The translations under genes and the position numbers were made by a program. The notes under the pieces are model-generated. The model searched no databases, was not told the DNA's origin, and worked only from the letters and a program-made list of their open reading frames with translations. Source: Naegleria gruberi (taxonomy: Eukaryota). From it: a DNA stretch of 64,000 nt. Shown piece after piece: positions 1 through 21,850 of this stretch (positions are counted from its first letter, which is position 1; each line of letters opens with the position of its first letter). The DNA is taken from NCBI GenBank assembly GCA_000004985.1, contig GG738928.1, one strand, 5' to 3'.

Positions 1-403
1 CCATACCCAAACCCAAACCCAAACCCAAACCCAAACCCAAATCCAAACCCAAACCCAAACCCAAACCCAAACCCAAACCCAAACCCAAACCCAAACCCAA
101 ACCCAAACCCAAACCCAAACCCAAACCCAACCCAAACCCAAACCCAAACCCAAACCCAAACCCAAACCCAACCCAAACCCAAACCCAAACCCAAACCCAA
201 ACCCAAACCCAAACCCAACCCAAACCCAAACCCAAACCCAAACCCAAACCCAAACCCAAACCCAAACCCAAACCCAAACCCAAACCCAAACCCAAACCCA
301 AACCCAAACCCAAACCCAAACCCAAACCCAAACCCAAACCCAAACCCAAACCCAAACCCAAACCCAAACCCAAACCCAAACCCAAACCCAAACCCAAACC
401 CAG
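1..403. repeat. Telomeric repeat array, (CCCAAA)n on + strand (G-strand TTTGGG), about 67 units with occasional CCCAA and CCAAAT variants; marks a chromosome left end
   Basis: Direct reading shows perfect hexamer periodicity from base 1 to about 403. Degenerate telomere-like words (ctaaacccaacg, caaaccctagcccaaaa) continue to about 460. The C-rich strand reads 5' to 3' at the sequence start. Confidence 0.85.
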
Positions 404-526: not shown

Positions 527-1053
527 TTTAGTTTTTCAATTTATAAAATATTAACTTTGTAAATAATATCAGATTAAAATTTCAAATATACAACTATAGG
601 AAGAATGATAATTTCAAAATCCTTTAATGAGATTATATAGTCTATATCATCGTTAACAACATTCATAATCACTTTCATATAAAATTTCAAAAGTTCATGT
701 CAGTAGGTATAAAAGTATCAAGTGAAAAGGGATATTGTGAGGTACAATAGGTCAACTATAACTTTTGAGTTTCTCATCAAAACATATTGAATCCTGACAT
801 GAAAATGTTCCATTTGATGAGTAAACATCGAATATCAAATTTATTTTGACTTTCATATTTAAAGATTTCTTCCTTCAATCATACATGGTCAACTAGGTAT
901 GAAAAGGATAACTTGAAAAAGAACCACTTTTGAAACTTTACCAACATGATATAGATGATCTATAATGATGTAGAATTCAATTTCATACCATAAAAATCAG
1001 AAATAGTACCATGGAAAGGTAAATGTTGATACATTATTGTTGACTTTAAGAAA
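527..1053. repeat. Subtelomeric repeat family A, copy 1 (truncated by the N-run at 1054)
   Basis: The segment aligns at roughly 85-90% identity with 15493..15990. The shared text runs from tttgtaaataat..cagattaaaattt to ggaaaggtaaatgttgata..ttgactttaagaaa. Confidence 0.75.
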
Positions 1054-4000
1054 NNNNNNNNNNNNNNNNNNNNNNNNNNNNNNNNNNNNNNNNNNNNNNN
1101 NNNNNNNNNNNNNNNNNNNNNNNNNNNNNNNNNNNNNNNNNNNNNNNNNNNNNNNNNNNNNNNNNNNNNNNNNNNNNNNNNNNNNNNNNNNNNNNNNNNN
1201 NNNNNNNNNNNNNNNNNNNNNNNNNNNNNNNNNNNNNNNNNNNNNNNNNNNNNNNNNNNNNNNNNNNNNNNNNNNNNNNNNNNNNNNNNNNNNNNNNNNN
1301 NNNNNNNNNNNNNNNNNNNNNNNNNNNNNNNNNNNNNNNNNNNNNNNNNNNNNNNNNNNNNNNNNNNNNNNNNNNNNNNNNNNNNNNNNNNNNNNNNNNN
1401 NNNNNNNNNNNNNNNNNNNNNNNNNNNNNNNNNNNNNNNNNNNNNNNNNNNNNNNNNNNNNNNNNNNNNNNNNNNNNNNNNNNNNNNNNNNNNNNNNNNN
1501 NNNNNNNNNNNNNNNNNNNNNNNNNNNNNNNNNNNNNNNNNNNNNNNNNNNNNNNNNNNNNNNNNNNNNNNNNNNNNNNNNNNNNNNNNNNNNNNNNNNN
1601 NNNNNNNNNNNNNNNNNNNNNNNNNNNNNNNNNNNNNNNNNNNNNNNNNNNNNNNNNNNNNNNNNNNNNNNNNNNNNNNNNNNNNNNNNNNNNNNNNNNN
1701 NNNNNNNNNNNNNNNNNNNNNNNNNNNNNNNNNNNNNNNNNNNNNNNNNNNNNNNNNNNNNNNNNNNNNNNNNNNNNNNNNNNNNNNNNNNNNNNNNNNN
1801 NNNNNNNNNNNNNNNNNNNNNNNNNNNNNNNNNNNNNNNNNNNNNNNNNNNNNNNNNNNNNNNNNNNNNNNNNNNNNNNNNNNNNNNNNNNNNNNNNNNN
1901 NNNNNNNNNNNNNNNNNNNNNNNNNNNNNNNNNNNNNNNNNNNNNNNNNNNNNNNNNNNNNNNNNNNNNNNNNNNNNNNNNNNNNNNNNNNNNNNNNNNN
2001 NNNNNNNNNNNNNNNNNNNNNNNNNNNNNNNNNNNNNNNNNNNNNNNNNNNNNNNNNNNNNNNNNNNNNNNNNNNNNNNNNNNNNNNNNNNNNNNNNNNN
2101 NNNNNNNNNNNNNNNNNNNNNNNNNNNNNNNNNNNNNNNNNNNNNNNNNNNNNNNNNNNNNNNNNNNNNNNNNNNNNNNNNNNNNNNNNNNNNNNNNNNN
2201 NNNNNNNNNNNNNNNNNNNNNNNNNNNNNNNNNNNNNNNNNNNNNNNNNNNNNNNNNNNNNNNNNNNNNNNNNNNNNNNNNNNNNNNNNNNNNNNNNNNN
2301 NNNNNNNNNNNNNNNNNNNNNNNNNNNNNNNNNNNNNNNNNNNNNNNNNNNNNNNNNNNNNNNNNNNNNNNNNNNNNNNNNNNNNNNNNNNNNNNNNNNN
2401 NNNNNNNNNNNNNNNNNNNNNNNNNNNNNNNNNNNNNNNNNNNNNNNNNNNNNNNNNNNNNNNNNNNNNNNNNNNNNNNNNNNNNNNNNNNNNNNNNNNN
2501 NNNNNNNNNNNNNNNNNNNNNNNNNNNNNNNNNNNNNNNNNNNNNNNNNNNNNNNNNNNNNNNNNNNNNNNNNNNNNNNNNNNNNNNNNNNNNNNNNNNN
2601 NNNNNNNNNNNNNNNNNNNNNNNNNNNNNNNNNNNNNNNNNNNNNNNNNNNNNNNNNNNNNNNNNNNNNNNNNNNNNNNNNNNNNNNNNNNNNNNNNNNN
2701 NNNNNNNNNNNNNNNNNNNNNNNNNNNNNNNNNNNNNNNNNNNNNNNNNNNNNNNNNNNNNNNNNNNNNNNNNNNNNNNNNNNNNNNNNNNNNNNNNNNN
2801 NNNNNNNNNNNNNNNNNNNNNNNNNNNNNNNNNNNNNNNNNNNNNNNNNNNNNNNNNNNNNNNNNNNNNNNNNNNNNNNNNNNNNNNNNNNNNNNNNNNN
2901 NNNNNNNNNNNNNNNNNNNNNNNNNNNNNNNNNNNNNNNNNNNNNNNNNNNNNNNNNNNNNNNNNNNNNNNNNNNNNNNNNNNNNNNNNNNNNNNNNNNN
3001 NNNNNNNNNNNNNNNNNNNNNNNNNNNNNNNNNNNNNNNNNNNNNNNNNNNNNNNNNNNNNNNNNNNNNNNNNNNNNNNNNNNNNNNNNNNNNNNNNNNN
3101 NNNNNNNNNNNNNNNNNNNNNNNNNNNNNNNNNNNNNNNNNNNNNNNNNNNNNNNNNNNNNNNNNNNNNNNNNNNNNNNNNNNNNNNNNNNNNNNNNNNN
3201 NNNNNNNNNNNNNNNNNNNNNNNNNNNNNNNNNNNNNNNNNNNNNNNNNNNNNNNNNNNNNNNNNNNNNNNNNNNNNNNNNNNNNNNNNNNNNNNNNNNN
3301 NNNNNNNNNNNNNNNNNNNNNNNNNNNNNNNNNNNNNNNNNNNNNNNNNNNNNNNNNNNNNNNNNNNNNNNNNNNNNNNNNNNNNNNNNNNNNNNNNNNN
3401 NNNNNNNNNNNNNNNNNNNNNNNNNNNNNNNNNNNNNNNNNNNNNNNNNNNNNNNNNNNNNNNNNNNNNNNNNNNNNNNNNNNNNNNNNNNNNNNNNNNN
3501 NNNNNNNNNNNNNNNNNNNNNNNNNNNNNNNNNNNNNNNNNNNNNNNNNNNNNNNNNNNNNNNNNNNNNNNNNNNNNNNNNNNNNNNNNNNNNNNNNNNN
3601 NNNNNNNNNNNNNNNNNNNNNNNNNNNNNNNNNNNNNNNNNNNNNNNNNNNNNNNNNNNNNNNNNNNNNNNNNNNNNNNNNNNNNNNNNNNNNNNNNNNN
3701 NNNNNNNNNNNNNNNNNNNNNNNNNNNNNNNNNNNNNNNNNNNNNNNNNNNNNNNNNNNNNNNNNNNNNNNNNNNNNNNNNNNNNNNNNNNNNNNNNNNN
3801 NNNNNNNNNNNNNNNNNNNNNNNNNNNNNNNNNNNNNNNNNNNNNNNNNNNNNNNNNNNNNNNNNNNNNNNNNNNNNNNNNNNNNNNNNNNNNNNNNNNN
3901 NNNNNNNNNNNNNNNNNNNNNNNNNNNNNNNNNNNNNNNNNNNNNNNNNNNNNNNNNNNNNNNNNNNNNNNNNNNNNNNNNNNNNNNNNNNNNNNNNNNN

Positions 4001-6305
4001 NNNNNNNNNNNNNNNNNNNNNNNNNNNNNNNNNNNNNNNNNNNNNNNNNNNNNNNNNNNNNNNNNNNNNNNNNNNNNNNNNNNNNNNNNNNNNNNNNNNN
4101 NNNNNNNNNNNNNNNNNNNNNNNNNNNNNNNNNNNNNNNNNNNNNNNNNNNNNNNNNNNNNNNNNNNNNNNNNNNNNNNNNNNNNNNNNNNNNNNNNNNN
4201 NNNNNNNNNNNNNNNNNNNNNNNNNNNNNNNNNNNNNNNNNNNNNNNNNNNNNNNNNNNNNNNNNNNNNNNNNNNNNNNNNNNNNNNNNNNNNNNNNNNN
4301 NNNNNNNNNNNNNNNNNNNNNNNNNNNNNNNNNNNNNNNNNNNNNNNNNNNNNNNNNNNNNNNNNNNNNNNNNNNNNNNNNNNNNNNNNNNNNNNNNNNN
4401 NNNNNNNNNNNNNNNNNNNNNNNNNNNNNNNNNNNNNNNNNNNNNNNNNNNNNNNNNNNNNNNNNNNNNNNNNNNNNNNNNNNNNNNNNNNNNNNNNNNN
4501 NNNNNNNNNNNNNNNNNNNNNNNNNNNNNNNNNNNNNNNNNNNNNNNNNNNNNNNNNNNNNNNNNNNNNNNNNNNNNNNNNNNNNNNNNNNNNNNNNNNN
4601 NNNNNNNNNNNNNNNNNNNNNNNNNNNNNNNNNNNNNNNNNNNNNNNNNNNNNNNNNNNNNNNNNNNNNNNNNNNNNNNNNNNNNNNNNNNNNNNNNNNN
4701 NNNNNNNNNNNNNNNNNNNNNNNNNNNNNNNNNNNNNNNNNNNNNNNNNNNNNNNNNNNNNNNNNNNNNNNNNNNNNNNNNNNNNNNNNNNNNNNNNNNN
4801 NNNNNNNNNNNNNNNNNNNNNNNNNNNNNNNNNNNNNNNNNNNNNNNNNNNNNNNNNNNNNNNNNNNNNNNNNNNNNNNNNNNNNNNNNNNNNNNNNNNN
4901 NNNNNNNNNNNNNNNNNNNNNNNNNNNNNNNNNNNNNNNNNNNNNNNNNNNNNNNNNNNNNNNNNNNNNNNNNNNNNNNNNNNNNNNNNNNNNNNNNNNN
5001 NNNNNNNNNNNNNNNNNNNNNNNNNNNNNNNNNNNNNNNNNNNNNNNNNNNNNNNNNNNNNNNNNNNNNNNNNNNNNNNNNNNNNNNNNNNNNNNNNNNN
5101 NNNNNNNNNNNNNNNNNNNNNNNNNNNNNNNNNNNNNNNNNNNNNNNNNNNNNNNNNNNNNNNNNNNNNNNNNNNNNNNNNNNNNNNNNNNNNNNNNNNN
5201 NNNNNNNNNNNNNNNNNNNNNNNNNNNNNNNNNNNNNNNNNNNNNNNNNNNNNNNNNNNNNNNNNNNNNNNNNNNNNNNNNNNNNNNNNNNNNNNNNNNN
5301 NNNNNNNNNNNNNNNNNNNNNNNNNNNNNNNNNNNNNNNNNNNNNNNNNNNNNNNNNNNNNNNNNNNNNNNNNNNNNNNNNNNNNNNNNNNNNNNNNNNN
5401 NNNNNNNNNNNNNNNNNNNNNNNNNNNNNNNNNNNNNNNNNNNNNNNNNNNNNNNNNNNNNNNNNNNNNNNNNNNNNNNNNNNNNNNNNNNNNNNNNNNN
5501 NNNNNNNNNNNNNNNNNNNNNNNNNNNNNNNNNNNNNNNNNNNNNNNNNNNNNNNNNNNNNNNNNNNNNNNNNNNNNNNNNNNNNNNNNNNNNNNNNNNN
5601 NNNNNNNNNNNNNNNNNNNNNNNNNNNNNNNNNNNNNNNNNNNNNNNNNNNNNNNNNNNNNNNNNNNNNNNNNNNNNNNNNNNNNNNNNNNNNNNNNNNN
5701 NNNNNNNNNNNNNNNNNNNNNNNNNNNNNNNNNNNNNNNNNNNNNNNNNNNNNNNNNNNNNNNNNNNNNNNNNNNNNNNNNNNNNNNNNNNNNNNNNNNN
5801 NNNNNNNNNNNNNNNNNNNNNNNNNNNNNNNNNNNNNNNNNNNNNNNNNNNNNNNNNNNNNNNNNNNNNNNNNNNNNNNNNNNNNNNNNNNNNNNNNNNN
5901 NNNNNNNNNNNNNNNNNNNNNNNNNNNNNNNNNNNNNNNNNNNNNNNNNNNNNNNNNNNNNNNNNNNNNNNNNNNNNNNNNNNNNNNNNNNNNNNNNNNN
6001 NNNNNNNNNNNNNNNNNNNNNNNNNNNNNNNNNNNNNNNNNNNNNNNNNNNNNNNNNNNNNNNNNNNNNNNNNNNNNNNNNNNNNNNNNNNNNNNNNNNN
6101 NNNNNNNNNNNNNNNNNNNNNNNNNNNNNNNNNNNNNNNNNNNNNNNNNNNNNNNNNNNNNNNNNNNNNNNNNNNNNNNNNNNNNNNNNNNNNNNNNNNN
6201 NNNNNNNNNNNNNNNNNNNNNNNNNNNNNNNNNNNNNNNNNNNNNNNNNNNNNNNNNNNNNNNNNNNNNNNNNNNNNNNNNNNNNNNNNNNNNNNNNNNN
6301 NNNNN
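1054..6305. other. Unresolved N-run (5252 N); assembly gap or masked sequence
   Basis: All bases are N. The ORFs 997..6336, 1037..6343 and 1046..6514 consist mostly of X and are artefacts apart from their real flanks. Confidence 0.99.
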
Positions 6306-7695
6306 GAGAGTACAATAGAAAATATCTCCATTTCAATTCTTGATATTATTAAGAATGTCAAAAAAATTCCCAGTACAGAAATACCAATGCCAATAACAAT
6401 ATTGAGTAAGAGATTTCTAGTTTCATCGATAAAGGTCTTTTGGCTAACTTGCATCGATTTACAAAATGCTAAGAAAGCATCAGCACCTGTTCTTCTATTT
6501 TGATAAATATACATAAACTCATAACTACAATATTAATATTATAAATTTGAATTCTTCTTACCTCGTTACAACTTCATAAAATTTCATCTTTCCATTCATA
6601 ACTGAATTTTCAATGTGTTCCAAAATGACGGAGTTTACTTCTCTTGTAGAAGCATATCTTTTAAAAATGTTAGTAAACTCTTTCCTTATTCCTGTATCGT
6701 TAGGGAGTGGAATATTGATAAGCTTATCTTCTATTGTAAAATCAGTAAACATTCCAGGTGTAAATACGCCTGAATTGGAGTTCTCCTCCAACTTTCTTAA
6801 CGCTTCTCTCTTTAGTTCAATCTTTTCCATAAAGGTGCTGTTGAACAATTGTATATTATCGTATTCTGTTGTATTAACCAATGGAAATGGACTTTTTAAA
6901 TCATCATAAAACTCCCAAACTATCTGAGCCATTCTCAAATTTCTAAATAAACCACCATAAGTACTCTGGATATAACATGAATCCTTAATAAGAGGAGATT
7001 TTGACAATAATGTTTGATAATAATTAGTTAATGCAAAACAAACAACCACCGTAGCAATACATAAGGAGAACATGAAAGCATAAGCAATTGTTCTTATTTT
7101 GGATTGGTAAGGAGAGCTGAGAGCATTTCGCAAAGCTTCTTCCTTTTTGTTCTCTGAGAGATTTTCTATTCCTTCAAAATCTTGTTTGCTTGTGAGAATT
7201 TCATCATCATCTTCTCTGAAGGCCTTTCTATCAACAGGGTAGATTCTCAAACTTGACCTTAAATTTCGTTTCAAGTTAGGTTGTTTGTAATGCTTTGATT
7301 CCTCTTCTTCTAGAACTGTCGCTTCTTCAAACAGTTGACTTGATAAGTTCTTGTCCAACTTGATGGATTCCACATATTTAGCATAGTGCCGTATAACAGT
7401 TTTATCATGTGGGAAATTCTTCATCAAGATTCCGAAATTTTCATCACAATACCTAGTTAATTTTGCTGAAAGAGAGTTTAAATTGGCTAGCTTTGATGTA
7501 TTTGGCCTTTCAATAGTAAGCTCTTTCCAGAATGCTTTATGAGCAATTTTGAGCTCCTCTTGTTTCTTTTCAAGAATAGAAATTGCATTCTTAATCTCTA
7601 ATGTGTACCGACCTTGACATGACAAATTACTTTGATCTCTTTCAAATTGTTTCACTCTATAATGCATATTGAGAGTTTCCCAATAATTTCCTCCT
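6306..7695 (-). CDS. Partial gene for a large multi-pass membrane protein (possibly channel or transporter-like). Two exons joined by a short intron at 6525..6561 (alternative acceptor near 6496). Both the 5' and 3' continuations are lost in N-runs.
   Basis: A continuous minus-strand frame covers 7695..6562 and ends ...KFYEVVT. The apparent TAA stop is part of a GTAAGA donor. The same frame resumes after an attgtag acceptor as YEFMYIYQNRRTGADAFLAF..LLLNIVIGIGISVLGIFLTFLII and then runs into the N-run. There are at least two predicted TM segments (IAYAFMFSLCIATVVVCFAL and the one above) and a coiled-coil-like region. Confidence 0.5.
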
Positions 7696-10600
7696 NNNNN
7701 NNNNNNNNNNNNNNNNNNNNNNNNNNNNNNNNNNNNNNNNNNNNNNNNNNNNNNNNNNNNNNNNNNNNNNNNNNNNNNNNNNNNNNNNNNNNNNNNNNNN
7801 NNNNNNNNNNNNNNNNNNNNNNNNNNNNNNNNNNNNNNNNNNNNNNNNNNNNNNNNNNNNNNNNNNNNNNNNNNNNNNNNNNNNNNNNNNNNNNNNNNNN
7901 NNNNNNNNNNNNNNNNNNNNNNNNNNNNNNNNNNNNNNNNNNNNNNNNNNNNNNNNNNNNNNNNNNNNNNNNNNNNNNNNNNNNNNNNNNNNNNNNNNNN
8001 NNNNNNNNNNNNNNNNNNNNNNNNNNNNNNNNNNNNNNNNNNNNNNNNNNNNNNNNNNNNNNNNNNNNNNNNNNNNNNNNNNNNNNNNNNNNNNNNNNNN
8101 NNNNNNNNNNNNNNNNNNNNNNNNNNNNNNNNNNNNNNNNNNNNNNNNNNNNNNNNNNNNNNNNNNNNNNNNNNNNNNNNNNNNNNNNNNNNNNNNNNNN
8201 NNNNNNNNNNNNNNNNNNNNNNNNNNNNNNNNNNNNNNNNNNNNNNNNNNNNNNNNNNNNNNNNNNNNNNNNNNNNNNNNNNNNNNNNNNNNNNNNNNNN
8301 NNNNNNNNNNNNNNNNNNNNNNNNNNNNNNNNNNNNNNNNNNNNNNNNNNNNNNNNNNNNNNNNNNNNNNNNNNNNNNNNNNNNNNNNNNNNNNNNNNNN
8401 NNNNNNNNNNNNNNNNNNNNNNNNNNNNNNNNNNNNNNNNNNNNNNNNNNNNNNNNNNNNNNNNNNNNNNNNNNNNNNNNNNNNNNNNNNNNNNNNNNNN
8501 NNNNNNNNNNNNNNNNNNNNNNNNNNNNNNNNNNNNNNNNNNNNNNNNNNNNNNNNNNNNNNNNNNNNNNNNNNNNNNNNNNNNNNNNNNNNNNNNNNNN
8601 NNNNNNNNNNNNNNNNNNNNNNNNNNNNNNNNNNNNNNNNNNNNNNNNNNNNNNNNNNNNNNNNNNNNNNNNNNNNNNNNNNNNNNNNNNNNNNNNNNNN
8701 NNNNNNNNNNNNNNNNNNNNNNNNNNNNNNNNNNNNNNNNNNNNNNNNNNNNNNNNNNNNNNNNNNNNNNNNNNNNNNNNNNNNNNNNNNNNNNNNNNNN
8801 NNNNNNNNNNNNNNNNNNNNNNNNNNNNNNNNNNNNNNNNNNNNNNNNNNNNNNNNNNNNNNNNNNNNNNNNNNNNNNNNNNNNNNNNNNNNNNNNNNNN
8901 NNNNNNNNNNNNNNNNNNNNNNNNNNNNNNNNNNNNNNNNNNNNNNNNNNNNNNNNNNNNNNNNNNNNNNNNNNNNNNNNNNNNNNNNNNNNNNNNNNNN
9001 NNNNNNNNNNNNNNNNNNNNNNNNNNNNNNNNNNNNNNNNNNNNNNNNNNNNNNNNNNNNNNNNNNNNNNNNNNNNNNNNNNNNNNNNNNNNNNNNNNNN
9101 NNNNNNNNNNNNNNNNNNNNNNNNNNNNNNNNNNNNNNNNNNNNNNNNNNNNNNNNNNNNNNNNNNNNNNNNNNNNNNNNNNNNNNNNNNNNNNNNNNNN
9201 NNNNNNNNNNNNNNNNNNNNNNNNNNNNNNNNNNNNNNNNNNNNNNNNNNNNNNNNNNNNNNNNNNNNNNNNNNNNNNNNNNNNNNNNNNNNNNNNNNNN
9301 NNNNNNNNNNNNNNNNNNNNNNNNNNNNNNNNNNNNNNNNNNNNNNNNNNNNNNNNNNNNNNNNNNNNNNNNNNNNNNNNNNNNNNNNNNNNNNNNNNNN
9401 NNNNNNNNNNNNNNNNNNNNNNNNNNNNNNNNNNNNNNNNNNNNNNNNNNNNNNNNNNNNNNNNNNNNNNNNNNNNNNNNNNNNNNNNNNNNNNNNNNNN
9501 NNNNNNNNNNNNNNNNNNNNNNNNNNNNNNNNNNNNNNNNNNNNNNNNNNNNNNNNNNNNNNNNNNNNNNNNNNNNNNNNNNNNNNNNNNNNNNNNNNNN
9601 NNNNNNNNNNNNNNNNNNNNNNNNNNNNNNNNNNNNNNNNNNNNNNNNNNNNNNNNNNNNNNNNNNNNNNNNNNNNNNNNNNNNNNNNNNNNNNNNNNNN
9701 NNNNNNNNNNNNNNNNNNNNNNNNNNNNNNNNNNNNNNNNNNNNNNNNNNNNNNNNNNNNNNNNNNNNNNNNNNNNNNNNNNNNNNNNNNNNNNNNNNNN
9801 NNNNNNNNNNNNNNNNNNNNNNNNNNNNNNNNNNNNNNNNNNNNNNNNNNNNNNNNNNNNNNNNNNNNNNNNNNNNNNNNNNNNNNNNNNNNNNNNNNNN
9901 NNNNNNNNNNNNNNNNNNNNNNNNNNNNNNNNNNNNNNNNNNNNNNNNNNNNNNNNNNNNNNNNNNNNNNNNNNNNNNNNNNNNNNNNNNNNNNNNNNNN
10001 NNNNNNNNNNNNNNNNNNNNNNNNNNNNNNNNNNNNNNNNNNNNNNNNNNNNNNNNNNNNNNNNNNNNNNNNNNNNNNNNNNNNNNNNNNNNNNNNNNNN
10101 NNNNNNNNNNNNNNNNNNNNNNNNNNNNNNNNNNNNNNNNNNNNNNNNNNNNNNNNNNNNNNNNNNNNNNNNNNNNNNNNNNNNNNNNNNNNNNNNNNNN
10201 NNNNNNNNNNNNNNNNNNNNNNNNNNNNNNNNNNNNNNNNNNNNNNNNNNNNNNNNNNNNNNNNNNNNNNNNNNNNNNNNNNNNNNNNNNNNNNNNNNNN
10301 NNNNNNNNNNNNNNNNNNNNNNNNNNNNNNNNNNNNNNNNNNNNNNNNNNNNNNNNNNNNNNNNNNNNNNNNNNNNNNNNNNNNNNNNNNNNNNNNNNNN
10401 NNNNNNNNNNNNNNNNNNNNNNNNNNNNNNNNNNNNNNNNNNNNNNNNNNNNNNNNNNNNNNNNNNNNNNNNNNNNNNNNNNNNNNNNNNNNNNNNNNNN
10501 NNNNNNNNNNNNNNNNNNNNNNNNNNNNNNNNNNNNNNNNNNNNNNNNNNNNNNNNNNNNNNNNNNNNNNNNNNNNNNNNNNNNNNNNNNNNNNNNNNNN

Positions 10601-13076: not shown

Positions 13077-13873
13077 CCGAGTCCCAACACTTGACATCAC
13101 TCTCATCATTCTCAGCATCGGCAAAACCAAATGTCTTGGATGTATATCTTTCCTCAGCACTTGATGAACTTAGCGGTGAATGTTTACATAAGGCAGAGAC
13201 TATCATGACAGTTATTGGTGTTATTGTATTTGTTTTCAAATTATCTCAACTCACGATTCAACAGCATGTTGATTCTCAAGTTATTGTTGTTGTTGTTGTG
13301 GATGTGCCTCTTTGGTATCAAGTCGCGTTGTGTTTGAGGTGACCACATCAAAGAAATCTGCAGAATTTTTTGGTACAATTAAGGTGATTATAAATAAATA
13401 AGGTCAATGACAACGTTGGGTTTTAAAACAAAATGGAATAGTCAATTTGGTAATATTAAGAAAATCCAAAAGAGGATGCCATGATGGTAGACGTTGAACT
13501 ACCTTAATATACGGTAGGTGGACATTGAACGGAGAATGTAAACTTTAAAATTGTTTTAATATTCAACCAATTCCAATCTCGTATCACAAAAAACATGTGT
13601 ATCAATTAGAGCGTCGATTCGCTTATTGAAATTTCTAGATGATTAAGGAAAATATGGAAGAAGATATGGCGAATTAACTTCATTACTAAATTAGTAACAA
13701 TTAATATTAATTTAATATGAAATCAATGAGAAGGAGTATTGATTCACATTGTTCTTTCTCCTCTCCTTATCACCTAATTGTTCACAATAATGTATAGTCA
13801 ATCAAACAATTAAAGATGTTACATGGAATACCTCACATCTGAACAACCTCTATTCATTAAGTTTATTTTGTTA

Positions 13874-13923
13874 NNNNNNNNNNNNNNNNNNNNNNNNNNN
13901 NNNNNNNNNNNNNNNNNNNNNNN
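13874..13923. other. Short N-run (50 N) at the edge of a repeat copy
   Basis: All bases are N. A partial copy of repeat C starts immediately after it. Confidence 0.99.
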
Positions 13924-14235
13924 TGTCAACACTTAATATATCTTAGTGAACACTCCATCTCAATGAAAGTACATCCAATAATCCTGTAACTTTACAAATT
14001 ACGTTTAATCACACTATTATACATCTGGTATCAATTTTATAGTGTTAGAATTGAATTCAATATGATAATAATAACAATCTTTCAAAATGTCACATTTCAA
14101 TATATAGAATATACTCCATCTCAGTCAATTTACAATATATCATACAAGTATCAAGTATGGATATACTCCCCTAGATGAGGAGAACAATCTGAGAAAGTTT
14201 CATGTTCATGGCTCTGTATCTTCAAGTCAACTAAG
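13924..14235. repeat. Dispersed repeat family C, copy 0 (includes the last roughly 25 bp of family B)
   Basis: Aligns with 16915..17190 and 21590..21850. Shared blocks include tagtgaacactccatctcagtgaaagt..ataataataacaatctttcaaaatgtcacatttcaa..ctccatctcagtca. Confidence 0.7.
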
Positions 14236-15467
14236 GAACATATTAGGTAATCAATTAGGAAGAATCTTAATTCCAAAATTAAATTTTACAATCATATCAA
14301 AACCATTGAATAATGAATTATTTATACAAGAATAATATATTCAATTGTTATATTCATGTCAGTAATCAGTGAAGGTGATACTTCTTCAACCTTAGTATAC
14401 ATATCTCAATATGTAGACAGTCAATTCCACTGAAACTTGAAATATTACCTATCTAGATGATATAATGATGACTCTTCATAGTAAGATGCATGTGAAATTG
14501 AGTGTGGACCGTTTTCATCTTGTTATATTTATAGAGATGGTATCCAACAGAGTCAGTTCACAATATTAAATATTGAAACTCATTCTATGTGACATGTTTG
14601 ATGTACGGAACGGTTTTTTATTGAATGTAATCAGTTTGAAATAATCTGATGAAATTGACACTGTCTAGTCACCATTACATGACAAATAGACCATAGTTTA
14701 CATTCCCTCTCAGTCATTTCAACGATTTATTGATTAATTCCACCACCATTATGTTTCTCGTACATTGTAGTACAGTTTATATTTCAAGAGTGATGTCTGT
14801 GTAGATTTTTATAATCGTAATACCATTCAATACCAATAAAACTCAATAGAAGTGTTAATTCTTCTCATTTTCAAATAGAGTATTCAATATAGAACACATC
14901 TAGATAGTTTCCAGATCATAAAAGTCAAGCTACTATATATGGTCTTTGATTAAATTTAAAAATAGACTGCCGTTAATTACTGGAATATTAATTCAAAGCT
15001 TGATGATAAAGCTGTTGATTGAAATCAAACCGATTATTGAATATTGATCATTGAATTGGTGAATAATCACTCTTGATAATGTTACTTATTCAGATTGCAT
15101 GCAAATCAACCTGATTCAATCTACAAAGGTTGGTAGTTGCACCACTACGTGGCGAAACTACCCATCCACGATCAATCAACATAAGAATCACTTCCATTCA
15201 ACTCAATTTGACCGTTATAATCAATAAATCAATGAAATGTTCCTTTATTAGCAATACCTATTCAATCTAACGAGTAGATTCACGTCCCAAACATTTGACT
15301 TCTAAAAGTCCATAATTCACAAGTTAGTACTGACCTGACCTTTAAATATCTATCAATACAAGAAATGAAACCATCAAATTTACATCATTAATAGATGATA
15401 AGAAATATAATCAATGATATGAATCTTCACTAAGTAATCTCTTAAATAACCCAAATAAATCAACTCT

Positions 15468-15492
15468 GAATCCTAACCAAACCCAACCCACT
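15468..15492. repeat. Interstitial telomere-like seed (cctaaccaaacccaaccca) immediately 5' of repeat A copy 2
   Basis: A short degenerate run of CCCAAA-type units is seen directly, abutting the start of the second family-A copy. Confidence 0.55.
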
Positions 15493-15990
15493 TTGTAAAT
15501 AATGTCAGATTAAAATTTCTAAAATGAAACCATAGGAAGAATGATAATTTCAAAATCCTTTAATGAGATTATATAGTATATATCATCATTAACAACATTT
15601 ATAATCACTTTCATATAAAATTTCAAAAGTTCAAGTCTGTAGATATAAAAGTATAGAGGGAAAAGGGAAGTTGTGAGGTACAAGAGGTCAACTATAACTT
15701 TTGAGTTTCTCATCAAAACATATTGAATCCTAATATGAAAATGTTCCATTTGATGAGTATACGTCGAATATCAAATTTATTTTAACTTTCATATTTACAG
15801 ATTTCTTCCCTCAACCATCATACGGTCAACTATGATGAACAGGATGAAATCTTGAAAAAGGACCACCTATTGAAACTTTACCAAAATGATGTACATGATC
15901 TATAATGATATAGAATTCAATTTCATGTCCTAATAATCAGAAATGGTATCATGGGAAGGTAAATGTTGATATTTTTTGGTTGACTTTAGA
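15493..15990. repeat. Subtelomeric repeat family A, copy 2 (internal)
   Basis: About 500 bp aligns to 527..1053 at roughly 85-90% identity. It is followed at 16035..16255 by a degenerate partial third copy sharing gaaaatgctccattcgatgagta..atcaagtttattttaactttt..gaaactttaccatcatg. Confidence 0.75.
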
Positions 15991-16034
15991 GAAAGACAAG
16001 TCAGACCAACTCTATCAAATACATCACTTCAACC

Positions 16035-16255
16035 AACAATATATACATGAAAATGCTCCATTCGATGAGTAGAGATAGAATATCAAGTTTATTTTAACTT
16101 TTATATTCACGATTTCAACTCTAACATGCCATCTGATAAACTATGGACACGGATGAATTTCTGGAAAATGACCACTTTATGAAACTTTACCATCATGTTA
16201 TACATCTCTACTAATGTATATGGTTCAATTTTCAGACAGTTTGGTGAACATTCTA
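16035..16255. repeat. Degenerate partial copy of repeat family A
   Basis: Shares blocks with family A (ccatt[ct]gatgagta, atatcaa[ag]tttatttt[ga]actt, gaaactttacca.catg.tatacat.tcta.taatg) at lower identity. Confidence 0.5.
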
Positions 16256-16470
16256 TCTTTCAATAAGGCAAAGGGTGAAATTTCAAGGTTGTCTTTGGAA
16301 GATCAGGAGGAAATCTTGAATATAGAGAACCAAATCCTCAATCTACAAAATACATATCAATCGATTGGAAATCAATAGTACATCTCGAAAATATCATTTA
16401 TTTTATGTTTTGAAATCTCTCCTTGACCTCTTTTAGTCAATTAAGACAATTAAGGATGAGACTATAGGAA

Positions 16471-17190
16471 AAGTTACCAATCTCAAAATAAATGATAATA
16501 TCGTGTTCCACATCTCAAATAAAGTGGACTTTCTTCAAATTATATATTTTCATTTCAATAAATGCATCCGTTAGATAGTACATGGTGATATTTCAATGGA
16601 ATGGATGGAAATCTGAAAGGTACAGAAACAACTCCATTTTCACTTAAATCAATATCATTACATGTAGACGCTCTAATTAGAATATGATATCAATTTCATG
16701 AATATTGGTTCAGTAGATGTCGACATGTCAACTCTATCAATTTACTATAGACATTTGACATGATATCATAGATTAAGCTCCAACTCACTCATTTTACGTA
16801 CAATCAGTCTAGAAATGATGATAAATAATATACACATCTATAAAATACATCTACAATAGTTTAAAAACGTTTCAAACTACTTTCATAAAATTAATCAGTA
16901 AATGTTCAATGTCAATCCTAGGTATACCATAGTGAACACTTCATCTCAGTGAAGGTACACCCAATCATCCTATAACTTTGCCAGATACGTTTAATCATAC
17001 TATTGTACATATTGTATTAATTTTAGATATTCTGAATAGAAATTGACTTGATAATAATAACAATCTGTCAAAAAAGTAACTTTTCAATATATAGAATACG
17101 CTCCAGCTCATTCAGTTTGTATAATATCAAACAAGTATGAAACATGAACACATTCCTATTGGTGATAGGTACAATCTGAGAAAGATTCAT
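16471..17190. repeat. Composite dispersed repeat B+C, copy 1
   Basis: Aligns along its whole length with 21141..21850. Shared text runs from aagttaccaatctcaaaataaatgataatatcgtgttc.acatctcaaataaagtggacttt through ctccatctcagtca. Confidence 0.75.
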
Positions 17191-17214
17191 TGTGAAGAAG
17201 TTGGGTCTTGTCAT

Positions 17215-19700
17215 CATACAAGAATTGAATCAAGTATCCATTTACTTGGATTGAACTTTACATAAGCACACCGGGTTTGAGCCACACCAAGCTCATTTGA
17301 GAAAGTGTAATTTAATTTTACAACGGGTTTGAGCCACACCATGTTCATTTGAAACAATTTCAAGTCGTTTTTACATCGGGTTTGACGACAACCACTGTTT
17401 AAAGATAACATTTGTGAAAAATCGACTGATCTCAATCATTATTAAGAATTTGAGTATACTCCAATGGAATGTTACCATCTACATACAGTTTAGAACATTT
17501 TCCATCCCCTTGTAAAAATTCCTTAATAATTTTGAAATATTCAAAGTTCAGTAAGAATGCAAAAATTTTAATTTGTTGTATAGTATAATACAGTATCATC
17601 AAAAAGTTGGATAACTCATTCTTTTGAAAAGAAGCAACGGGTTTGAGCCACTCCACGTTCATTTGAAACAATTTCAAAAAGTTTTTACATCGGGTTGGAT
17701 GACAACCATTGTTTTAAAGATTACAGTTGTGAAAAATCGACTGATCTCAATCATTTCTGAGAATTTAAGTATACTGTAAAGGACTGGTACCATTTCTATC
17801 GAGTTTTGAACATTTTCCATCTACTTGAAAAAATTCCTTACTAATTGTGAAGTAAGAAAAGTTCAGTAAGAATGTAAAAATTTTAATTTGTTGTATAGTA
17901 TAATACAGTCTTGTCAAAAGGTTGGATACGTCACTCTTTCGAAAAGAAGCAACGGGTTTGAGCCACTCCACGTTCATTTGAAACAATTTCAAACAGTTTT
18001 TACATCGGGTTGGATAACAACCATTGTTTTAAAGATTACAGTTGTGAAAAAATGGCAAATCTCAATCATTTTTGAGAATTTAACTATACTGTAAAAGACT
18101 GTCACCATTTCCATCGAGTTTTGAACATTTTCCAATCACTTGTAAAAAATTCTTAATAATTGTGAACTACTCAAAGTTCACTAAGATAGAAATATTTCAT
18201 AAACTTATAGTTCCTTATTGTAAGGAATTGTCAAAAGGTCTGAAATCCACTTTCATGAATATAATCAACAGGTTTGAGCCAATCCATGTTCATTTGAAAC
18301 AATTTCAAACAGTTTTTACATCGGGTTGGATGACAACCACTGTTTTAAAGATTACAGTTGTGAAAAAATGGAAAATCTCAATCATTATGGATATTTTGAG
18401 TATACTCCAATGGAATGTTACTATCTACATACAGTTTAGAACATTTTCCATCCCCTTGTAAAAATTCCTTAATAATTTTGAAATATTCAAAGTTCAGTAA
18501 GATTGCAAACAATTTACTTTGTTGAATAGTGTATTACAGCCTCATCACAATCGATCAGGAACTTTTTTGAAAAGAAGCAACGGGTTTGAGCCACTCCAAG
18601 CTCATTTGAAACAGTTTCAAAAAGTTTTTACATCGGGTTGGATGACAACCACTGTTTTAAAGATTACAGTTGTGAAAAAATGGCAAATCTCAATCATTTT
18701 TGAGAATTTAAGTATACTGTAAAGGACTGGTACCATTTCCATCGAGTTTTGAACATTTTCCATCTACTTGAAAAAATTCCTTACTAATTGTGAAATATTC
18801 AAAGTTCAGTAAGAAAGTTTAATTGTGAAAATGTTGCCAGAATACCAGTTAAAATTGTATTCCGATTGAATTTTACGTAAGCACACCGGGTTTGAGCCAC
18901 ACCAAGCTCATTTAAGAAAGTTTAATTTAATTTTACAACGGGTTTGAGCCAGTCCATGGAGTTGTTAGTAAAGAGTGGTTGGATGAAATCACTGTTTCAA
19001 AGATAACAGTTGTGAAAAATCGACCAATCTCAATCATTATTAAGAATTTGAGTATAGTTCAATGGAATTATACCATCTATAGCCAGTTTTGAACATTTTC
19101 CATCGACTTGTAAAAATTCCTTAATAATTAGGATGAAGGAAAAGTTCACTAAGAAAAGACAATGTTAATTTGTTGAACAGTATTGTACAATCCCCACCTA
19201 AAGGTTGAATAAGTCACTCTTTTGAGAAGAAGCAACGGGTTTGAGCAACTCCAAGCTCATTTGAAACATTTAATAGTAGTTGTTACATCGGGTTGGATGA
19301 CAACCACTGTTTTAAAGATTACAGTTGTGAAAAATAGACTGATCTCAATCATTATTGAGAATTTAAGTACACTTTAAAGGACTGCCACCATTTCCATCGA
19401 TTTTGGAACATTTTCCATCTACTTGAAACAATNNNNNNNNNNNNNNNNNNNNNNNNNNNNNNNNNNNNNNNNNNNNNNNNNNCATTTGAAACAATTTCAA
19501 ACAGTTTTAATCGGGTTGGATGACAACCATTGTTTAAAAGATAACAGTTGTGAAAAAATGGCAAATCTCAATCATTTCTTAGAATTTAACTATGCTGTAA
19601 CGGAATGTTACCATCTACAGCAATTTTAGAACACTTTCCATCTACTTGAAACAATTCCTTAATAATTATGATGCAAGCAAAGTTCACTAAGAAAAGAATA
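17215..19700. repeat. Tandem satellite array, about 8 units with period roughly 300-330 bp
   Basis: A conserved core (caacgggtttgagccactccacgttcatttgaaacaatttcaaacagtttttacatcgggttggatgacaaccactgttttaaagattacagttgtgaaaaaatggcaaatctcaatcatt..gagaatttaagtatactgtaaaggactg..ccatttccatcgagttttgaacattttccatc) recurs at about 17636, 17951, 18272, 18587, 18937, 19238 and 19483, with shortened variants at 17272 and 18887. A 50-N run lies inside the array. The repeated small ORFs here (MKLFQMNVEWLKPVASF...) derive from the repeat. Confidence 0.8.
19433..19482. other. Short N-run (50 N) inside the satellite array
   Basis: All bases are N. Confidence 0.99.
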
Positions 19701-21126
19701 TTTCAAAAACTTATTGTTGGTGGAATGATTCTGCACAACTATAGAGCATCTCCTTGTTCCGATATTGTACATGTGGATATTAGTAAAAAAACCACCACTA
19801 TAACAAAATTTTTTGTTTTGGTCCAACAGATGATGAGAATTGGCACTTGTAAATGTTGAAAATAATGTTATACCAATTCTACATCATACACAACTTGGCT
19901 ACTTATCCATCATTTACAAAATGATACAATTGAAATAAATATCATATCTCAATTTAAATATAGAGATGGTCAATTAAGGTACCTCAATAGGGAAGTACCC
20001 TAAGGACAATGAGATTCAATACCAAATTGATACAATATGTTATTAACATCATATAATGAGGTTTCTATCAATTTCAAATCATTTGGACATCATTCAGTAT
20101 TCATGCCATTTAACCATGTCACTAACTACTCATGATAATATGACAAGTCAATATCAAGATGTTCAACAAGATAGAATATCATACAAATACTCTTATAATT
20201 GATGTTCATAACGTATTTGAGTGATACAAATCAATATCTATATAATTGGACTATCTGTCAAGCTACTGTCCTAATTGACAAAAAGGTAACATTCTTACAT
20301 GTCATGAATGGTAATAATCAACACCAATTCAATACTACCATGTTATAATCATCAAATACTCTCATCGAATCAATTTTGGAATGATTTCAATATCATCTTA
20401 GATAGTTATCATATGACAAAGTTACTACCTTAGTGAACTACCCACGTCATTAATAAATGTCTAAAACCAAATCTTTCAATTATATATTCATATATATATC
20501 AATAATAGTGTATAATATCAGTTTTATAATATATAATCAATTATTGGTATGATGGCAATATTTCAATTAAACATTGACATTGCAACATTTCGCAAATTGG
20601 AAATATAGGTCATAACATCATGATATTCAACATTTAGTGATAAAGTAAAACGATGACATATATTATCCAATAAAATATTCAGATCCCTTTAAAAGTGTTA
20701 ACCACATCAAAAGCTCCCCATGCAAGTTGACTTCCAAAAGTCTCAAAATGGATCCAATCATGATTTTTTCAGTGATATATGATTACCATTCATATTCACT
20801 ACTGTATTTATCAGTATTATTGAATTTTATTGTGTTTCCATATTATAGGTCAACATCTTGGTCAATTAATCATTTACTAGTAGAAAAGCTACAAGGAAAT
20901 GTTTCTCTCTAGTCACCACCCAATAACCTCCTCTTCATGAAGAAGAGTTCCAAATCTTGAGATGAGAACCTTGTTCACTTTCAATATGTTGAATTAATGC
21001 AACCACTTTCCCATTCTTCTATCAAGTGTTGTCACAATAAGAAGCTTCTGATTCGTATCAACAATAAACAATTTCAAAATCTTAAATCAATAAGAGATTG
21101 GAGTAAGAGGTATCCGAGGTTCGTAG

Positions 21127-21140
21127 AACCAAACCCAAAG
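21127..21140. repeat. Interstitial telomere-like seed (aaccaaacccaaag) immediately 5' of repeat B copy 2
   Basis: Seen directly at the junction with copy 2 of repeat B. Copy 1 of B (16471) lacks the seed. Confidence 0.45.
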
Positions 21141-21850
21141 TTACCAATCTCAAAATAAATGATAATATCGTGTTCTACATCTCAAATAAAGTGGACTTTC
21201 ATCAAATTATATATTTTCATTTCAAGAAATGCATCCAGTAGATAGTACATGGTGATTTGTCAGGAGAATGGATGGAAATCTGAAGGGTCCAGAAACAACT
21301 CCAATTTAACTGAAATTGATATCATGGTATGTAGACACTCTAATTAGTATGTGGTATCAATTTCATGAATATTGGTTCAGTAGATGTCGAGATGTCAACA
21401 CTATCAATTTACTATAGACATTTGACATAATATCATAGATTATACTCCAACTCACTCATTTTACATATAATAAGTCTAGAATTGATACCACATAGTCTAT
21501 ATATCAATTAATATACATCTACAATAGTTAAGAAACATTTCAAACTATTTTCATAAAATTAATCAGTAAATGTTCAATATCAACATTATATATATCCTAG
21601 TGAACACTCCATCTCAGTGAAAGTTATTCCAATCATTCTGTAACTTTACCCAATACGTTTAATCACATTATTATACATCTGGTATCAATTGCATACAGTT
21701 AGAATTGAATTCAATATGATAATAATAACAATCTTTCAAAATGTCACATTTCAAAAAAAAGATTACACTCCATCTCAGTCAGTTTACAAATATCATACTA
21801 GTATCAAATATGAATACACTCCTCTTGATGAGGATCTGAGAAGTTTCAAT
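21141..21850. repeat. Composite dispersed repeat B+C, copy 2
   Basis: Aligns with 16471..17190 at roughly 85% identity, with indels. Confidence 0.75.

What the first reader, a model, noticed from the sequence alone, without database searches (positions are those of the whole stretch)
527..21850. Subtelomeric repeat families; internal copies are prefixed by telomere-like seeds
Family A lies next to the true telomere at 527..1053. It recurs about 15 kb further in, at 15493..15990, immediately after a short CCCAAA-like seed at 15468..15492. One copy of the composite B+C element (21141..21850) is likewise preceded by aaccaaacccaaag. The other copy (16471..17190) is not, and a C-only copy sits at 13924..14235 right after a 50-N run. 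This pattern is what ectopic recombination among chromosome ends, telomere healing or telomere-mediated fusion leaves behind. It could also indicate a chimeric join in the assembly, since the 1..13 kb stretch is mostly N.
Basis: partly seen in the sequence, partly recalled or inferred. Interest (0 to 1): 0.6.

Follow-up and report, generated by a model that had tools for sequence, protein, structure and literature searches.

The report
Stacked relic chromosome ends, Naegleria subtelomere
This is the end of a Naegleria gruberi chromosome, where partial copies of one telomere-adjacent DNA block lie stacked behind the real telomere, two of them still capped by a few telomere repeats; the same layout is known from human and yeast chromosome ends, so it is ordinary in kind, though I found no description of it for this amoeba.

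Summary
The window is the telomeric end of a Naegleria gruberi scaffold, with (CCCAAA)67 at 1-402. Outside that tract, the telomere word CCAAACCCAA occurs only twice (0.17 expected). Both are on the telomere strand, and each abuts the point where a repeat copy begins (15474-15489 before A'; 21126-139 before B2).

An unrelated public contig (L001) shows that A, B and C are pieces of one block: junction-A-Apost-B-C. In L001 a telomere seed sits exactly where the true telomere sits here. The window's internal copies are that block cut from the distal side (by 150 and about 1,130 bp) and capped by seeds.

L001 is a mosaic of the window's two copies. The switch point falls within 40 nt of the site where copy 2 is cut. 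A cyclase gene fragment distal to the seeds is 97.6% identical to a gene on another scaffold.

Best reading: former chromosome ends, truncated, healed by telomerase, then buried under captured chromosome tips and reshuffled by ectopic recombination. Head-to-head telomere fusion is excluded by seed orientation.

One puzzle remains: all seeds share the non-canonical word AACCAAACCC, which is absent from the terminal tract. Genome-wide restriction to chromosome ends could not be tested.

Known kind, new organism.

The parts
1..402 (+). Terminal telomere tract, C-rich strand (CCCAAA)n: 61 canonical units, 3 CCCAA, 1 T-substituted unit
   Evidence: TRF; unit census. TTTGGG was named as the candidate N. 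gruberi telomere repeat in PMC3622300.
403..553 (+). Telomere-adjacent junction: degenerate telomere-like units (to about 452), then unique DNA. It forms the distal part of the full-length block.
   Evidence: Homologous to L001 about 1160-1299, where it follows a 16-nt seed instead of a telomere. 76% identity over 430-553.
554..1053 (+). A1, terminal copy of segment A, cut off by the 5.2-kb N run
   Evidence: 89.3% to A' and 91.3% to L001
6306..7695 (-). Fragment of a receptor-type adenylate/guanylate cyclase gene (TmcB-TPR region), lying in the tip distal to the seeds
   Evidence: Pfam TPR_TmcB, E 4e-14. 97.6% aa identity to NAEGRDRAFT_71755, which sits on a 342,059-bp scaffold.
13924..14387 (+). 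C3 plus extension, the third copy of the proximal part of the block; left edge is a 50-N gap
   Evidence: 83% to 21580-21933 and 78% to 16910-17190
14388..15473 (+). U1, DNA distal to seed 1 with no relative in the data held
   Evidence: nhmmer finds only the self hit; no Pfam hit
15474..15489 (+). Seed 1 (interstitial telomeric sequence) TAACCAAACCCAACCC
15490..15994 (+). A', an internal copy of A lacking the 150-bp junction
   Evidence: Homology to A1 and to L001 begins at the first base after the seed. 96.6% to L001.
15995..16469 (+). Apost, the segment linking A and B; contains a partial 310-bp tandem repeat of A' (16047-16231)
   Evidence: 98.5% to L001 1803-2277; repeats D8/D9
16470..16909 (+). 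B1
   Evidence: Divergence from L001 jumps from 2.4% to 10.6% at this boundary.
16910..17192 (+). C1, the most diverged C copy; homology ends where the satellite region starts
17193..19700 (+). 315-bp satellite, about 8 monomers in two higher-order blocks, each opened by a 52-bp partial unit; interrupted by a 50-N gap
   Evidence: TRF
19701..21125 (+). U2, DNA distal to seed 2 with no relative in the data held
   Evidence: nhmmer. The weak U1-U2 similarity was rejected.
21126..21139 (+). Seed 2 GAACCAAACCCAAA; the last AAA is shared with the start of B
21137..21579 (+). B2, a copy of the block cut about 1,130 bp in from its distal end
   Evidence: About 99% to L001 over the first 200 nt and 94.0% over 350 nt.
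21580..22043 (+). C2 plus extension
22176..23169 (+). U3, the last non-genic kilobase before the gene-dense region. In L001 a diverged homologue lies between a C copy and the seed.
   Evidence: nhmmer E 3e-35 to L001

Best explanation
The region is a stack of former chromosome ends.

A telomere-adjacent block in Naegleria gruberi has the order telomere - 150-bp junction - A - Apost - B - C - (extension/U3).

Proposed steps:
1. Chromosome ends carrying this block were shortened from the distal side, by 150 bp in one copy and about 1,130 bp in the other.
2. Telomerase healed each shortened end, priming on a terminal T or TTT.
3. Each healed end, with its telomere worn down to two or three repeats, acquired the tip of another chromosome. 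This happened by break-induced replication or by end joining. The old telomere stayed behind as a 14-16 nt internal seed in the original orientation.
4. Copies went on exchanging sequence by ectopic recombination or gene conversion.

Shown: the copies, the seeds, their orientation and register, the positional equivalence of seed and telomere, the mosaic, and the inter-scaffold paralogue.

Inferred: the order of events, the involvement of telomerase, and the joining pathway.
For: - The organism and the terminal position are established.
- Telomere words outside the terminal tract occur only at the two homology boundaries, both on the telomere strand.
- L001 carries junction-A-Apost-B uninterrupted, preceded by TAACCAAACCCAAACC at the exact position of the (CCCAAA)67 tract of the window. 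Seed and telomere are therefore interchangeable at this site.
- Relative to L001, copy 1 lacks only the junction. Copy 2 lacks the junction, A and Apost. Each starts right after a seed: nested distal truncations sharing a common proximal part.
- Both proximal junctions are in telomere register on the G strand (...CAAAGT|GGG and ...AACTTT|GGG). In the second, the TTT is original block sequence.
- DNA distal to the seed differs in all three cases: the true telomere, U1/U2, and U3-like.
- L001 matches copy 1 through A (96.6%) and Apost (98.5%), then switches. Over the first 200 nt of B, 19 informative sites agree with copy 2 and 2 agree with copy 1. There are 24 differences in 980 nt before the switch and 37 in 350 nt after it (Fisher p 1.2e-8). 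The switch lies within 40 nt of the cut point of copy 2.
- The distal tip holds a cyclase gene fragment 97.6% identical to NAEGRDRAFT_71755 on another scaffold. The next closest relatives are about 34% identical.
- The same architecture is documented for human subtelomeres: internal tracts oriented toward the telomere, at duplicon boundaries, next to stacks of subterminal duplicons. There it is explained by translocation of chromosome tips (PMC2323237).
Against: - All seeds (two in the window, two in L001) share the non-canonical word AACCAAACCC. It does not occur among the 67 units of the terminal tract. Independent random leftovers of a canonical tract would not share it, so the seeds may not be independent.
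- No second chromosome end of this genome could be examined, so restriction to ends is untested.
- The source of L001 is unknown. It may come from another strain or a close relative, so it cannot validate the specific joins U1|seed1 and U2|seed2.
- The distal 13 kb is 81% N, and the order of its three small contigs rests on mate pairs.
- The 97.6% paralogue could instead be a mis-scaffolded allelic contig.
Confidence: 0.6

Rival explanations
1. There was one ancestral seed rather than independent healing events. The word TAACCAAACCC(AAACC) was part of the distal edge of the block and was copied along with it. The short copies arose by internal deletions running from the proximal edge of the seed to a microhomology (CTTTG at the A start, AAAG at the B start). 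The DNA distal to the seed was replaced later by exchanges at the seed.
For: - All seeds share AACCAAACCC, which is absent from the terminal tract.
- Both window copies are close relatives of L001 in their respective parts: 96.6% in A, and 94.0% over the first 350 nt of B (about 99% over the first 200 nt). Descent of all three seeds from one seed is therefore plausible.
- In L001 the seed is followed by CCTTTG and A starts with ACTTTG, so a deletion between the two gives nearly the observed join.
Against: - It needs two separate deletions that both start exactly at the seed edge.
- The predicted join (CCCAAACTTTG) differs from the observed one (CCCAACCCACTTTG).
- DNA distal to the seeds should then be homologous, but it is not.
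- It does not explain why the true telomere sits at the seed position in the terminal copy.
Confidence: 0.2
2. This is an array of telomere-attaching retroelements of the kind seen in Drosophila HeT-A/TART or rotifer Athena (recalled from memory). Elements attach by their 3' end to the chromosome end, erode from the 5' side, and receive a few telomerase repeats before the next element lands.
For: - Head-to-tail order, variable distal (5') truncation with a shared proximal part, and short telomere tracts between units.
- In this model the shared TAACCAAACCC could be a conserved 3'-terminal tail of the distal elements.
Against: - No reverse transcriptase or any other Pfam domain is found in any open frame of the visible repeats or of U1/U2. 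A chimeric ORF query found no protein anywhere.
- The three sequences that end at the seeds (U1, U2, L001 U3-like) are unrelated and carry no poly(A).
- The block copies have no common 3' end. C1 runs into the satellite, C2 and C3 continue into an extension, and L001 diverges earlier.
Confidence: 0.05
3. It is an assembly artefact. The scaffold end is a chimera of reads from several chromosome ends, and the internal copies do not lie on one molecule.
For: - 81% of the first 13 kb is N. Contigs 1-1053, 6306-7695 and 13077-13873 are short and placed by mate pairs only. Two 50-N gaps fall inside repeats.
- The cyclase fragment has a 97.6% twin on another scaffold, as a misplaced contig would.
Against: - Seed 1 lies 1,550 nt and seed 2 lies 1,643 nt inside their contigs.
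- Seeds of 14-16 nt cannot drive a false overlap.
- The copies differ by 10-25%, far too much for repeat collapse.
- L001, from an independent data set, shows the same A-Apost-B contiguity and an internal seed in front of the block.
Confidence: 0.08

Closest known systems
Human subterminal duplicon stacks with internal (TTAGGG)n islands (Ambrosini et al. 2007, PMC2323237)
   Same: - Internal telomere tracts point toward the telomere and co-localise with duplicon boundaries.
- Sequences that normally sit next to a terminal tract recur internally next to internal tracts, forming stacks.
- The copies are divergent and mosaic.
- The accepted explanation is translocation of chromosome tips.
   Different: - The scale differs: blocks here are 0.5-2.5 kb and seeds 14-16 nt, against kilobases to hundreds of kilobases and mostly 150-200 bp tracts in human.
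- The repeat unit is TTTGGG.
- Here all seeds share one non-canonical word.
- Only one chromosome end could be examined.
Yeast X / Y' subtelomeres with internal TG1-3 tracts (from memory; also mentioned in PMC6410037)
   Same: Telomere-adjacent elements recur head-to-tail with short internal telomere tracts between them. They spread between ends by recombination.
   Different: No helicase-type ORF or ARS could be identified. The copies here are nested truncations separated by unrelated DNA and a satellite, not a regular tandem array.
Terminal retrotransposon arrays (Drosophila HeT-A/TART/TAHRE; endonuclease-deficient Penelope-like Athena elements of rotifers; from memory)
   Same: Head-to-tail order, variable truncation on the distal side, and (in Athena) short telomerase repeats between units.
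   Different: There is no reverse transcriptase, no poly(A) or constant 3' end, and the distal neighbours of the seeds are unrelated.
Chromosome healing / de novo telomere addition at breaks, and telomere seeding by interstitial repeats (general knowledge; healing discussed in PMC6410037)
   Same: Non-telomeric DNA is joined in register to telomere repeats at a T-run. A short internal tract occupies the same position as a functional telomere in a paralogous copy.
   Different: Here the healed ends are no longer terminal. The direction of change (relic of a telomere versus seed for a new one) cannot be read from three sequences.

Membership tests
Subtelomeric duplicon patchwork with interstitial telomeric sequences | Lies directly behind a terminal telomere tract | tested here: met
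   (CCCAAA)67 at 1-402; repeats occupy 403-23169 and genes are dense from about 23 kb
Subtelomeric duplicon patchwork with interstitial telomeric sequences | Internal telomere tracts co-localise with duplication boundaries | tested here: met
   Both internal telomere words abut the first aligned base of A' and of B2. None occurs elsewhere in 53 kb of called sequence.
Subtelomeric duplicon patchwork with interstitial telomeric sequences | Internal tracts have the orientation of the terminal tract | tested here: met
   Both seeds are on the + strand, as is the terminal C-strand. The same holds in L001 relative to the block.
Subtelomeric duplicon patchwork with interstitial telomeric sequences | Telomere-adjacent sequence recurs internally next to an internal tract | tested here: met
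   junction+A is terminal at 403-1053. A is internal after seed 1, and junction+A is internal after a seed in L001.
Subtelomeric duplicon patchwork with interstitial telomeric sequences | Blocks are shared among different chromosome ends and enriched there | not testable with these tools
   - No other N. gruberi scaffold could be fetched.
- Indirect evidence only: one external contig of unknown origin (L001), and a 97.6% paralogue of the distal gene on another scaffold whose position there is unknown.
Subtelomeric duplicon patchwork with interstitial telomeric sequences | Mosaic similarity between copies (ectopic exchange) | tested here: met
   L001 switches from copy-1-like to copy-2-like at the Apost|B boundary, p 1.2e-8
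Telomere-telomere fusion relic | Head-to-head (inverted) telomere tracts | tested here: not met
   No telomere word on the - strand anywhere in the window; no inverted repeats in 13924-23200
Telomere-specific retrotransposon array | Reverse transcriptase / gag-like coding capacity in at least some units | tested here: not met
   No Pfam hit in any ORF of at least 45 aa in the visible units and no protein relatives. The two 5-kb gaps are unseen.
Telomere-specific retrotransposon array | Constant 3' end (poly(A) or telomere-complementary tail) joined to the older end | tested here: not met
   The sequences ending at the three seeds are unrelated and lack an A-run. Only the 10-11 nt word TAACCAAACCC is shared.
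Telomere-specific retrotransposon array | Variable truncation on the distal (5') side | tested here: met
   Copies start at block position 0, 150 and about 1,130. This is equally expected from terminal erosion of any subtelomere.
Yeast Y'-type element | Helicase ORF and regular tandem units separated by internal telomere tracts | tested here: not met
   No ORF with a domain. Units are separated by unrelated DNA and a satellite.

The most novel reading that the evidence does not exclude
The seeds are not passive leftovers but a specific sequence, (T/G)AACCAAACCC. On the G strand this reads ...GGGTTTGG-TT(A/C).

One possibility is that it is the footprint of a defined molecular step. For example, telomerase may copy past its template boundary, producing a non-extendable ...GGTTA end that must be rescued by capturing another chromosome tip. 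The other possibility is that it is a cis-acting site at which Naegleria chromosome ends are preferentially broken, seeded with new telomeres and recombined. That would be loosely reminiscent of the ciliate chromosome breakage sequence (TAAACCAACCTCTTT, recalled from memory, not tested).

The first version predicts that the N. gruberi telomerase RNA reads 5'-...UAACCAAACCCAAA...-3' around its template.
Probability: 0.08. Interest if true: 0.65.

Novelty: new member of a known kind. Interest (0 to 1): 0.3.

Why it matters
I found no description of Naegleria subtelomeres in the searchable literature. The 2013 survey only proposed TTTGGG as the candidate repeat.

This window shows that a heterolobosean, very distant from animals and fungi, builds its chromosome ends the same way. 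It has a telomere-adjacent block, nested truncated copies capped by internal telomere seeds, a satellite, and exchange between ends that carries along a signalling gene (an adenylate/guanylate cyclase).

That supports the view that telomere healing plus tip capture is a general eukaryotic route of subtelomere evolution.

It also gives practical markers for checking new long-read Naegleria assemblies: the junction-A sequence, the B start and the 315-bp satellite.

The shared non-canonical seed word is a small, testable oddity.

Tried and rejected
- **Chimeric protein query.** I joined the longest open frames of A, B, C, Apost and the satellite to find annotated or predicted proteins in other copies. 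There were no hits.
- **The look-up of encoding contigs.** I tried the first large ORF next to the repeats and the D-lactate dehydrogenase P0001. Neither is on record, so the collection does not index this genome.
- **Word-indexed protein search with the cyclase fragment.** No hit. The full HMMER scan did find relatives, but those proteins cannot be used to fetch DNA.
- **Exact-pattern scans.** The 42-nt A core gave nothing in bacterial/archaeal genomes or in viral contigs.
- **Homology between U1 and U2, the DNA distal to the two seeds.** A lenient local alignment gave z about 5 against mononucleotide shuffles. That fell to about 3 against Markov simulations. Strict scoring and nhmmer found nothing. 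Rejected.
- **A possible 155-160 bp sub-periodicity of B+C.** A motif ACTCCAnCTCA recurs every 146-162 bp and unit pairs score z 3-4, but ungapped autocorrelation shows nothing. Left as weak.
- **Relation of A to the 315-bp satellite.** None beyond the similar period of A's internal duplication.
- **Rfam and tRNA scans.** Nothing in the first 34 kb.
- **Identity of VFQN01.** Not found in the literature held.
Full report
**Source of the window.**
- An ORF at 48480-50210 (-) is 100% identical to NAEGRDRAFT_75708 of Naegleria gruberi, carried on a 160,583-bp contig.
- The window uses the standard genetic code and is gene-dense from about 23 kb onward.
- It begins with 67.5 units of CCCAAA.
- TTTGGG was proposed as the candidate N. 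gruberi telomere repeat from the genome assembly in PMC3622300.
- The window is therefore a telomeric scaffold end of the Sanger draft assembly. The N runs (5252, 5381, 50 and 50 bases) are scaffold gaps, and 81% of the first 13,076 bases is N.

- A self-comparison, pairwise alignments and the repeat finder give these pairs:
  - A: 554-1053 with 15490-15994, 89.3%.
  - B+C: 16470-17192 with 21137-21852, 83.9%.
  - Third C copy: 13924-14285 with 21580-21933, 83% (weaker to 14387 / 22043).
- The internal A copy starts at the base after TAACCAAACCCAACCC (15474-15489).
- The second B copy starts inside the last AAA of GAACCAAACCCAAA (21126-21139).
- The 10-mer CCAAACCCAA occurs 61 times in the terminal tract and only at these two places elsewhere. 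Both are on the + strand, with 0.17 expected.
- A looser 14-mer scan adds only the degenerate units at 437-452 next to the real telomere and one chance site inside a gene.
- Two telomere words falling within 3 nt of two of roughly ten homology boundaries in 53 kb cannot be coincidence.
The third C copy starts at a gap, so it cannot be called C-only.

**An external contig changes the picture.**
- One scan of the metagenome collection with the first 31 nt of B returned a single 2,627-bp contig, VFQN01031297.1 (L001). I could not trace its source.
- Its layout is as follows:
  - the end of a C copy (1-69);
  - a diverged homologue of window 22176-23169 (85-1082; nhmmer E 3e-35);
  - two telomere-like seeds, TAACCAAACCC at 1105 and TAACCAAACCCAAACC at 1144;
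  - a stretch homologous to window about 430-553, the unique DNA next to the true telomere;
  - A, Apost and B without interruption (1300-2627), 95.4% identical to window 15490-16819.
- Three conclusions follow:
  1. A, Apost and B form one contiguous stretch in L001 and in window 15490-16909, and C follows directly in the window (16910-17192). The 'left edge of B' is merely the point where the window's second copy is cut. That is why the first B copy needs no seed.
  2. In L001 a 16-nt seed occupies exactly the place of the 402-bp telomere of the window. Seed and telomere are two states of one site.
  3. Relative to the full-length arrangement, the window's internal copies are nested truncations from the distal side. 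They lack 150 bp and about 1,130 bp, and each is capped by a seed.

**Junction details.**
- On the G-rich strand the two proximal junctions read ...CAAAGT|GGGTTGGG... and ...GGTAACTTT|GGGTTTGG....
- In the second, the TTT is original block sequence, since the uncut copies read GGTAACTTTTCC.
- Both are in register with TTTGGG. That is expected if telomerase extended a broken end whose terminal T-run paired with the template. Microhomology-mediated joining would look the same.
- DNA distal to the seeds is unrelated in the three cases: U1, U2 and the U3-like stretch of L001.
- The apparent U1-U2 similarity did not survive composition-matched controls.

**Exchange between copies.**
- Identities:

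| Segment | Pair | Identity (%) |
|---|---|---|
| A | A1 - A' | 89.3 |
| A | A1 - L001 | 91.3 |
| A | A' - L001 | 96.6 |
| Apost | window - L001 | 98.5 |
| B (first 350 nt) | B1 - B2 | 90.6 |
| B (first 350 nt) | B1 - L001 | 89.4 |
| B (first 350 nt) | B2 - L001 | 94.0 |
| C | C1 - C2 | 75.6 |
| C | C1 - C3 | 77.7 |
| C | C2 - C3 | 86.2 |

- L001 differs from the window's first internal copy at 24 of 980 positions up to the Apost|B boundary. It differs at 37 of the next 350 positions (Fisher p 1.2e-8).
- In the first 200 nt of B it agrees with B2 against B1 at 19 sites, and with B1 against B2 at 2 sites.
- One of these sequences is therefore a recombinant. The switch point (16470-16509) coincides with the position at which the second copy is cut and capped.
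- This is what break-induced replication or gene conversion started from an end eroded to the start of B would produce. The direction of the exchange cannot be decided from three sequences.

**The distal tip.**
- Contig 6306-7695 encodes, on the minus strand, part of a receptor-type adenylate/guanylate cyclase (Pfam TPR_TmcB).
- A full HMMER scan found NAEGRDRAFT_71755 (XP_002673218.1) at 97.6% amino-acid identity over 378 + 38 residues. The next relatives are about 34% identical.
- That protein is encoded on a different scaffold of 342,059 bp.
- So the DNA distal to the seeds contains a very recent duplicate of a gene located elsewhere, as tip capture predicts. A mis-scaffolded allelic contig is the alternative I cannot exclude.

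**Mechanism.**
- The best-supported account is a stack of former chromosome ends. The steps are terminal truncation, telomere addition, shortening of the new telomere, acquisition of another chromosome's tip that buries the remnant, and continued ectopic exchange.
- The architecture matches point for point what Ambrosini et al. described for human subtelomeres. There, internal tracts are oriented toward the telomere, almost always lie at duplicon boundaries, and adjoin stacks of subterminal duplicons. Those authors interpreted the pattern as translocation of chromosome tips (PMC2323237).
- End-to-end telomere fusion is excluded, because it would leave head-to-head tracts. No telomere word lies on the minus strand.
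- A retroelement array is disfavoured. There is no reverse transcriptase or any other domain, no common 3' end, no poly(A), and the distal neighbours are unrelated. The two 5-kb gaps remain unseen.
- An assembly chimera at the seeds is unlikely for three reasons:
  - both seeds lie more than 1.5 kb inside contigs;
  - the copies differ by 10-25%;
  - L001 independently shows the same contiguity.
- The order of the three small distal contigs, however, cannot be verified here.

**An unexplained detail.**
- All seeds begin, on the distal side, with the same non-canonical word:
  - TAACCAAACCC (seed 1 and both L001 seeds);
  - GAACCAAACCC (seed 2).
- The unit CCAAA, one C short, does not occur among the 67 units of the terminal tract. 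Its variants there are three CCCAA and one T substitution.
- The two L001 seeds are a local duplication, so there are three independent instances at most. Even so, random remnants of a canonical tract should not share this word.
- There are two possibilities:
  - The seeds descend from one ancestral seed. In that case the truncations would be deletions anchored at the seed, which is the second-ranked explanation.
  - The word is the footprint of a specific step, such as telomerase read-through past its template or a preferred joining or seeding site.
- I could not test this.

**What could not be done.** The decisive genome-wide test is whether the block and the satellite are confined to chromosome ends and where U1 and U2 come from. 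It needs the other scaffolds or the recent nanopore assembly of N. gruberi (PMC12695648). None of the collections reachable here holds them.

**Verdict.** This is a real, well-defined feature of a known kind, seen in a lineage for which I found no description of it. It is a new member of a known kind and of modest interest, with one small oddity (the shared seed word) worth following up.

Noticed in passing
window 15474-15489, 21126-21139; L001 1105-1119, 1144-1159: All internal telomere-like seeds share the non-canonical word AACCAAACCC (three of them TAACCAAACCC). It is absent from the 402-bp terminal tract. On the G strand each ends ...GGGTTTGG-TT(A/C).
   Followed up: partly
window 17193-19700: A 315-bp satellite of about 8 monomers (81% matches between copies). 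It forms two higher-order blocks, each opened by a 52-bp partial unit (17273/17325 and 18888/18940). It is wedged between the first internal block copy and U2, and it has no protein or Rfam match.
   Followed up: partly
window 6306-7695 (-): A subtelomeric fragment of a membrane adenylate/guanylate cyclase gene, 97.6% aa identical to NAEGRDRAFT_71755 on a different 342-kb scaffold. Both loci share the same break between ...EVVTR and RRTGADAF, either a short intron or a frameshift. The word-indexed protein search missed it entirely.
   Followed up: partly
window 16470-16509 versus L001 2278-2317: The divergence between L001 and the window copy jumps from 2.4% to 10.6% here. This recombination breakpoint coincides with the truncation point of the seed-capped copy at 21137.
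   Followed up: yes
window 22176-23169 and L001 85-1082: The last non-genic kilobase before the genes has a diverged homologue in L001, with islands of high conservation. One example is GAAGGGAGAAGTTGCTCCCT...GGGAAGATYCAACTTGATGAYCAAGAGATG at window about 22412-22490. There is no Rfam or Pfam match, and its function is unknown.
   Followed up: no
window 21137-21890 (also 16470-17192): B+C may itself be an old, degenerate tandem array. The motif ACTCCAnCTCA recurs every 146-162 bp, and neighbouring about 155-bp units align with z 3-4. Ungapped autocorrelation shows nothing.
   Followed up: partly
window 15735-15923 and 16047-16231: A partial tandem duplication inside A'/Apost with a 309-312 bp period, close to the 315-bp satellite period. 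No sequence similarity to the satellite was detected. The same duplication is present in L001.
   Followed up: partly
window 13500-22500: The non-satellite parts of the subtelomere show C>G (GC skew about -0.10 to -0.19) and A>T on the + strand. This is the same polarity as the C/A-rich telomere strand. GC content is about 29%, against about 34% in the genes.
   Followed up: no
L001 55-85: Where L001 departs from the C-extension of the window copies it has an A-run followed by AAACCCTAA (cttcgggtaaaaaaaagaaaccctaattaaag). L001 lacks the about 300-bp extension present after C2 and C3.
   Followed up: no
window 34215-58504; 36083-36711 and 45618-46264: Five tRNA genes (Met, Arg, Val, Pro, Thr) are scattered in the gene-dense part. 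A pair of diverged paralogous gene segments (66% nt identity) lies 9.5 kb apart.
   Followed up: no
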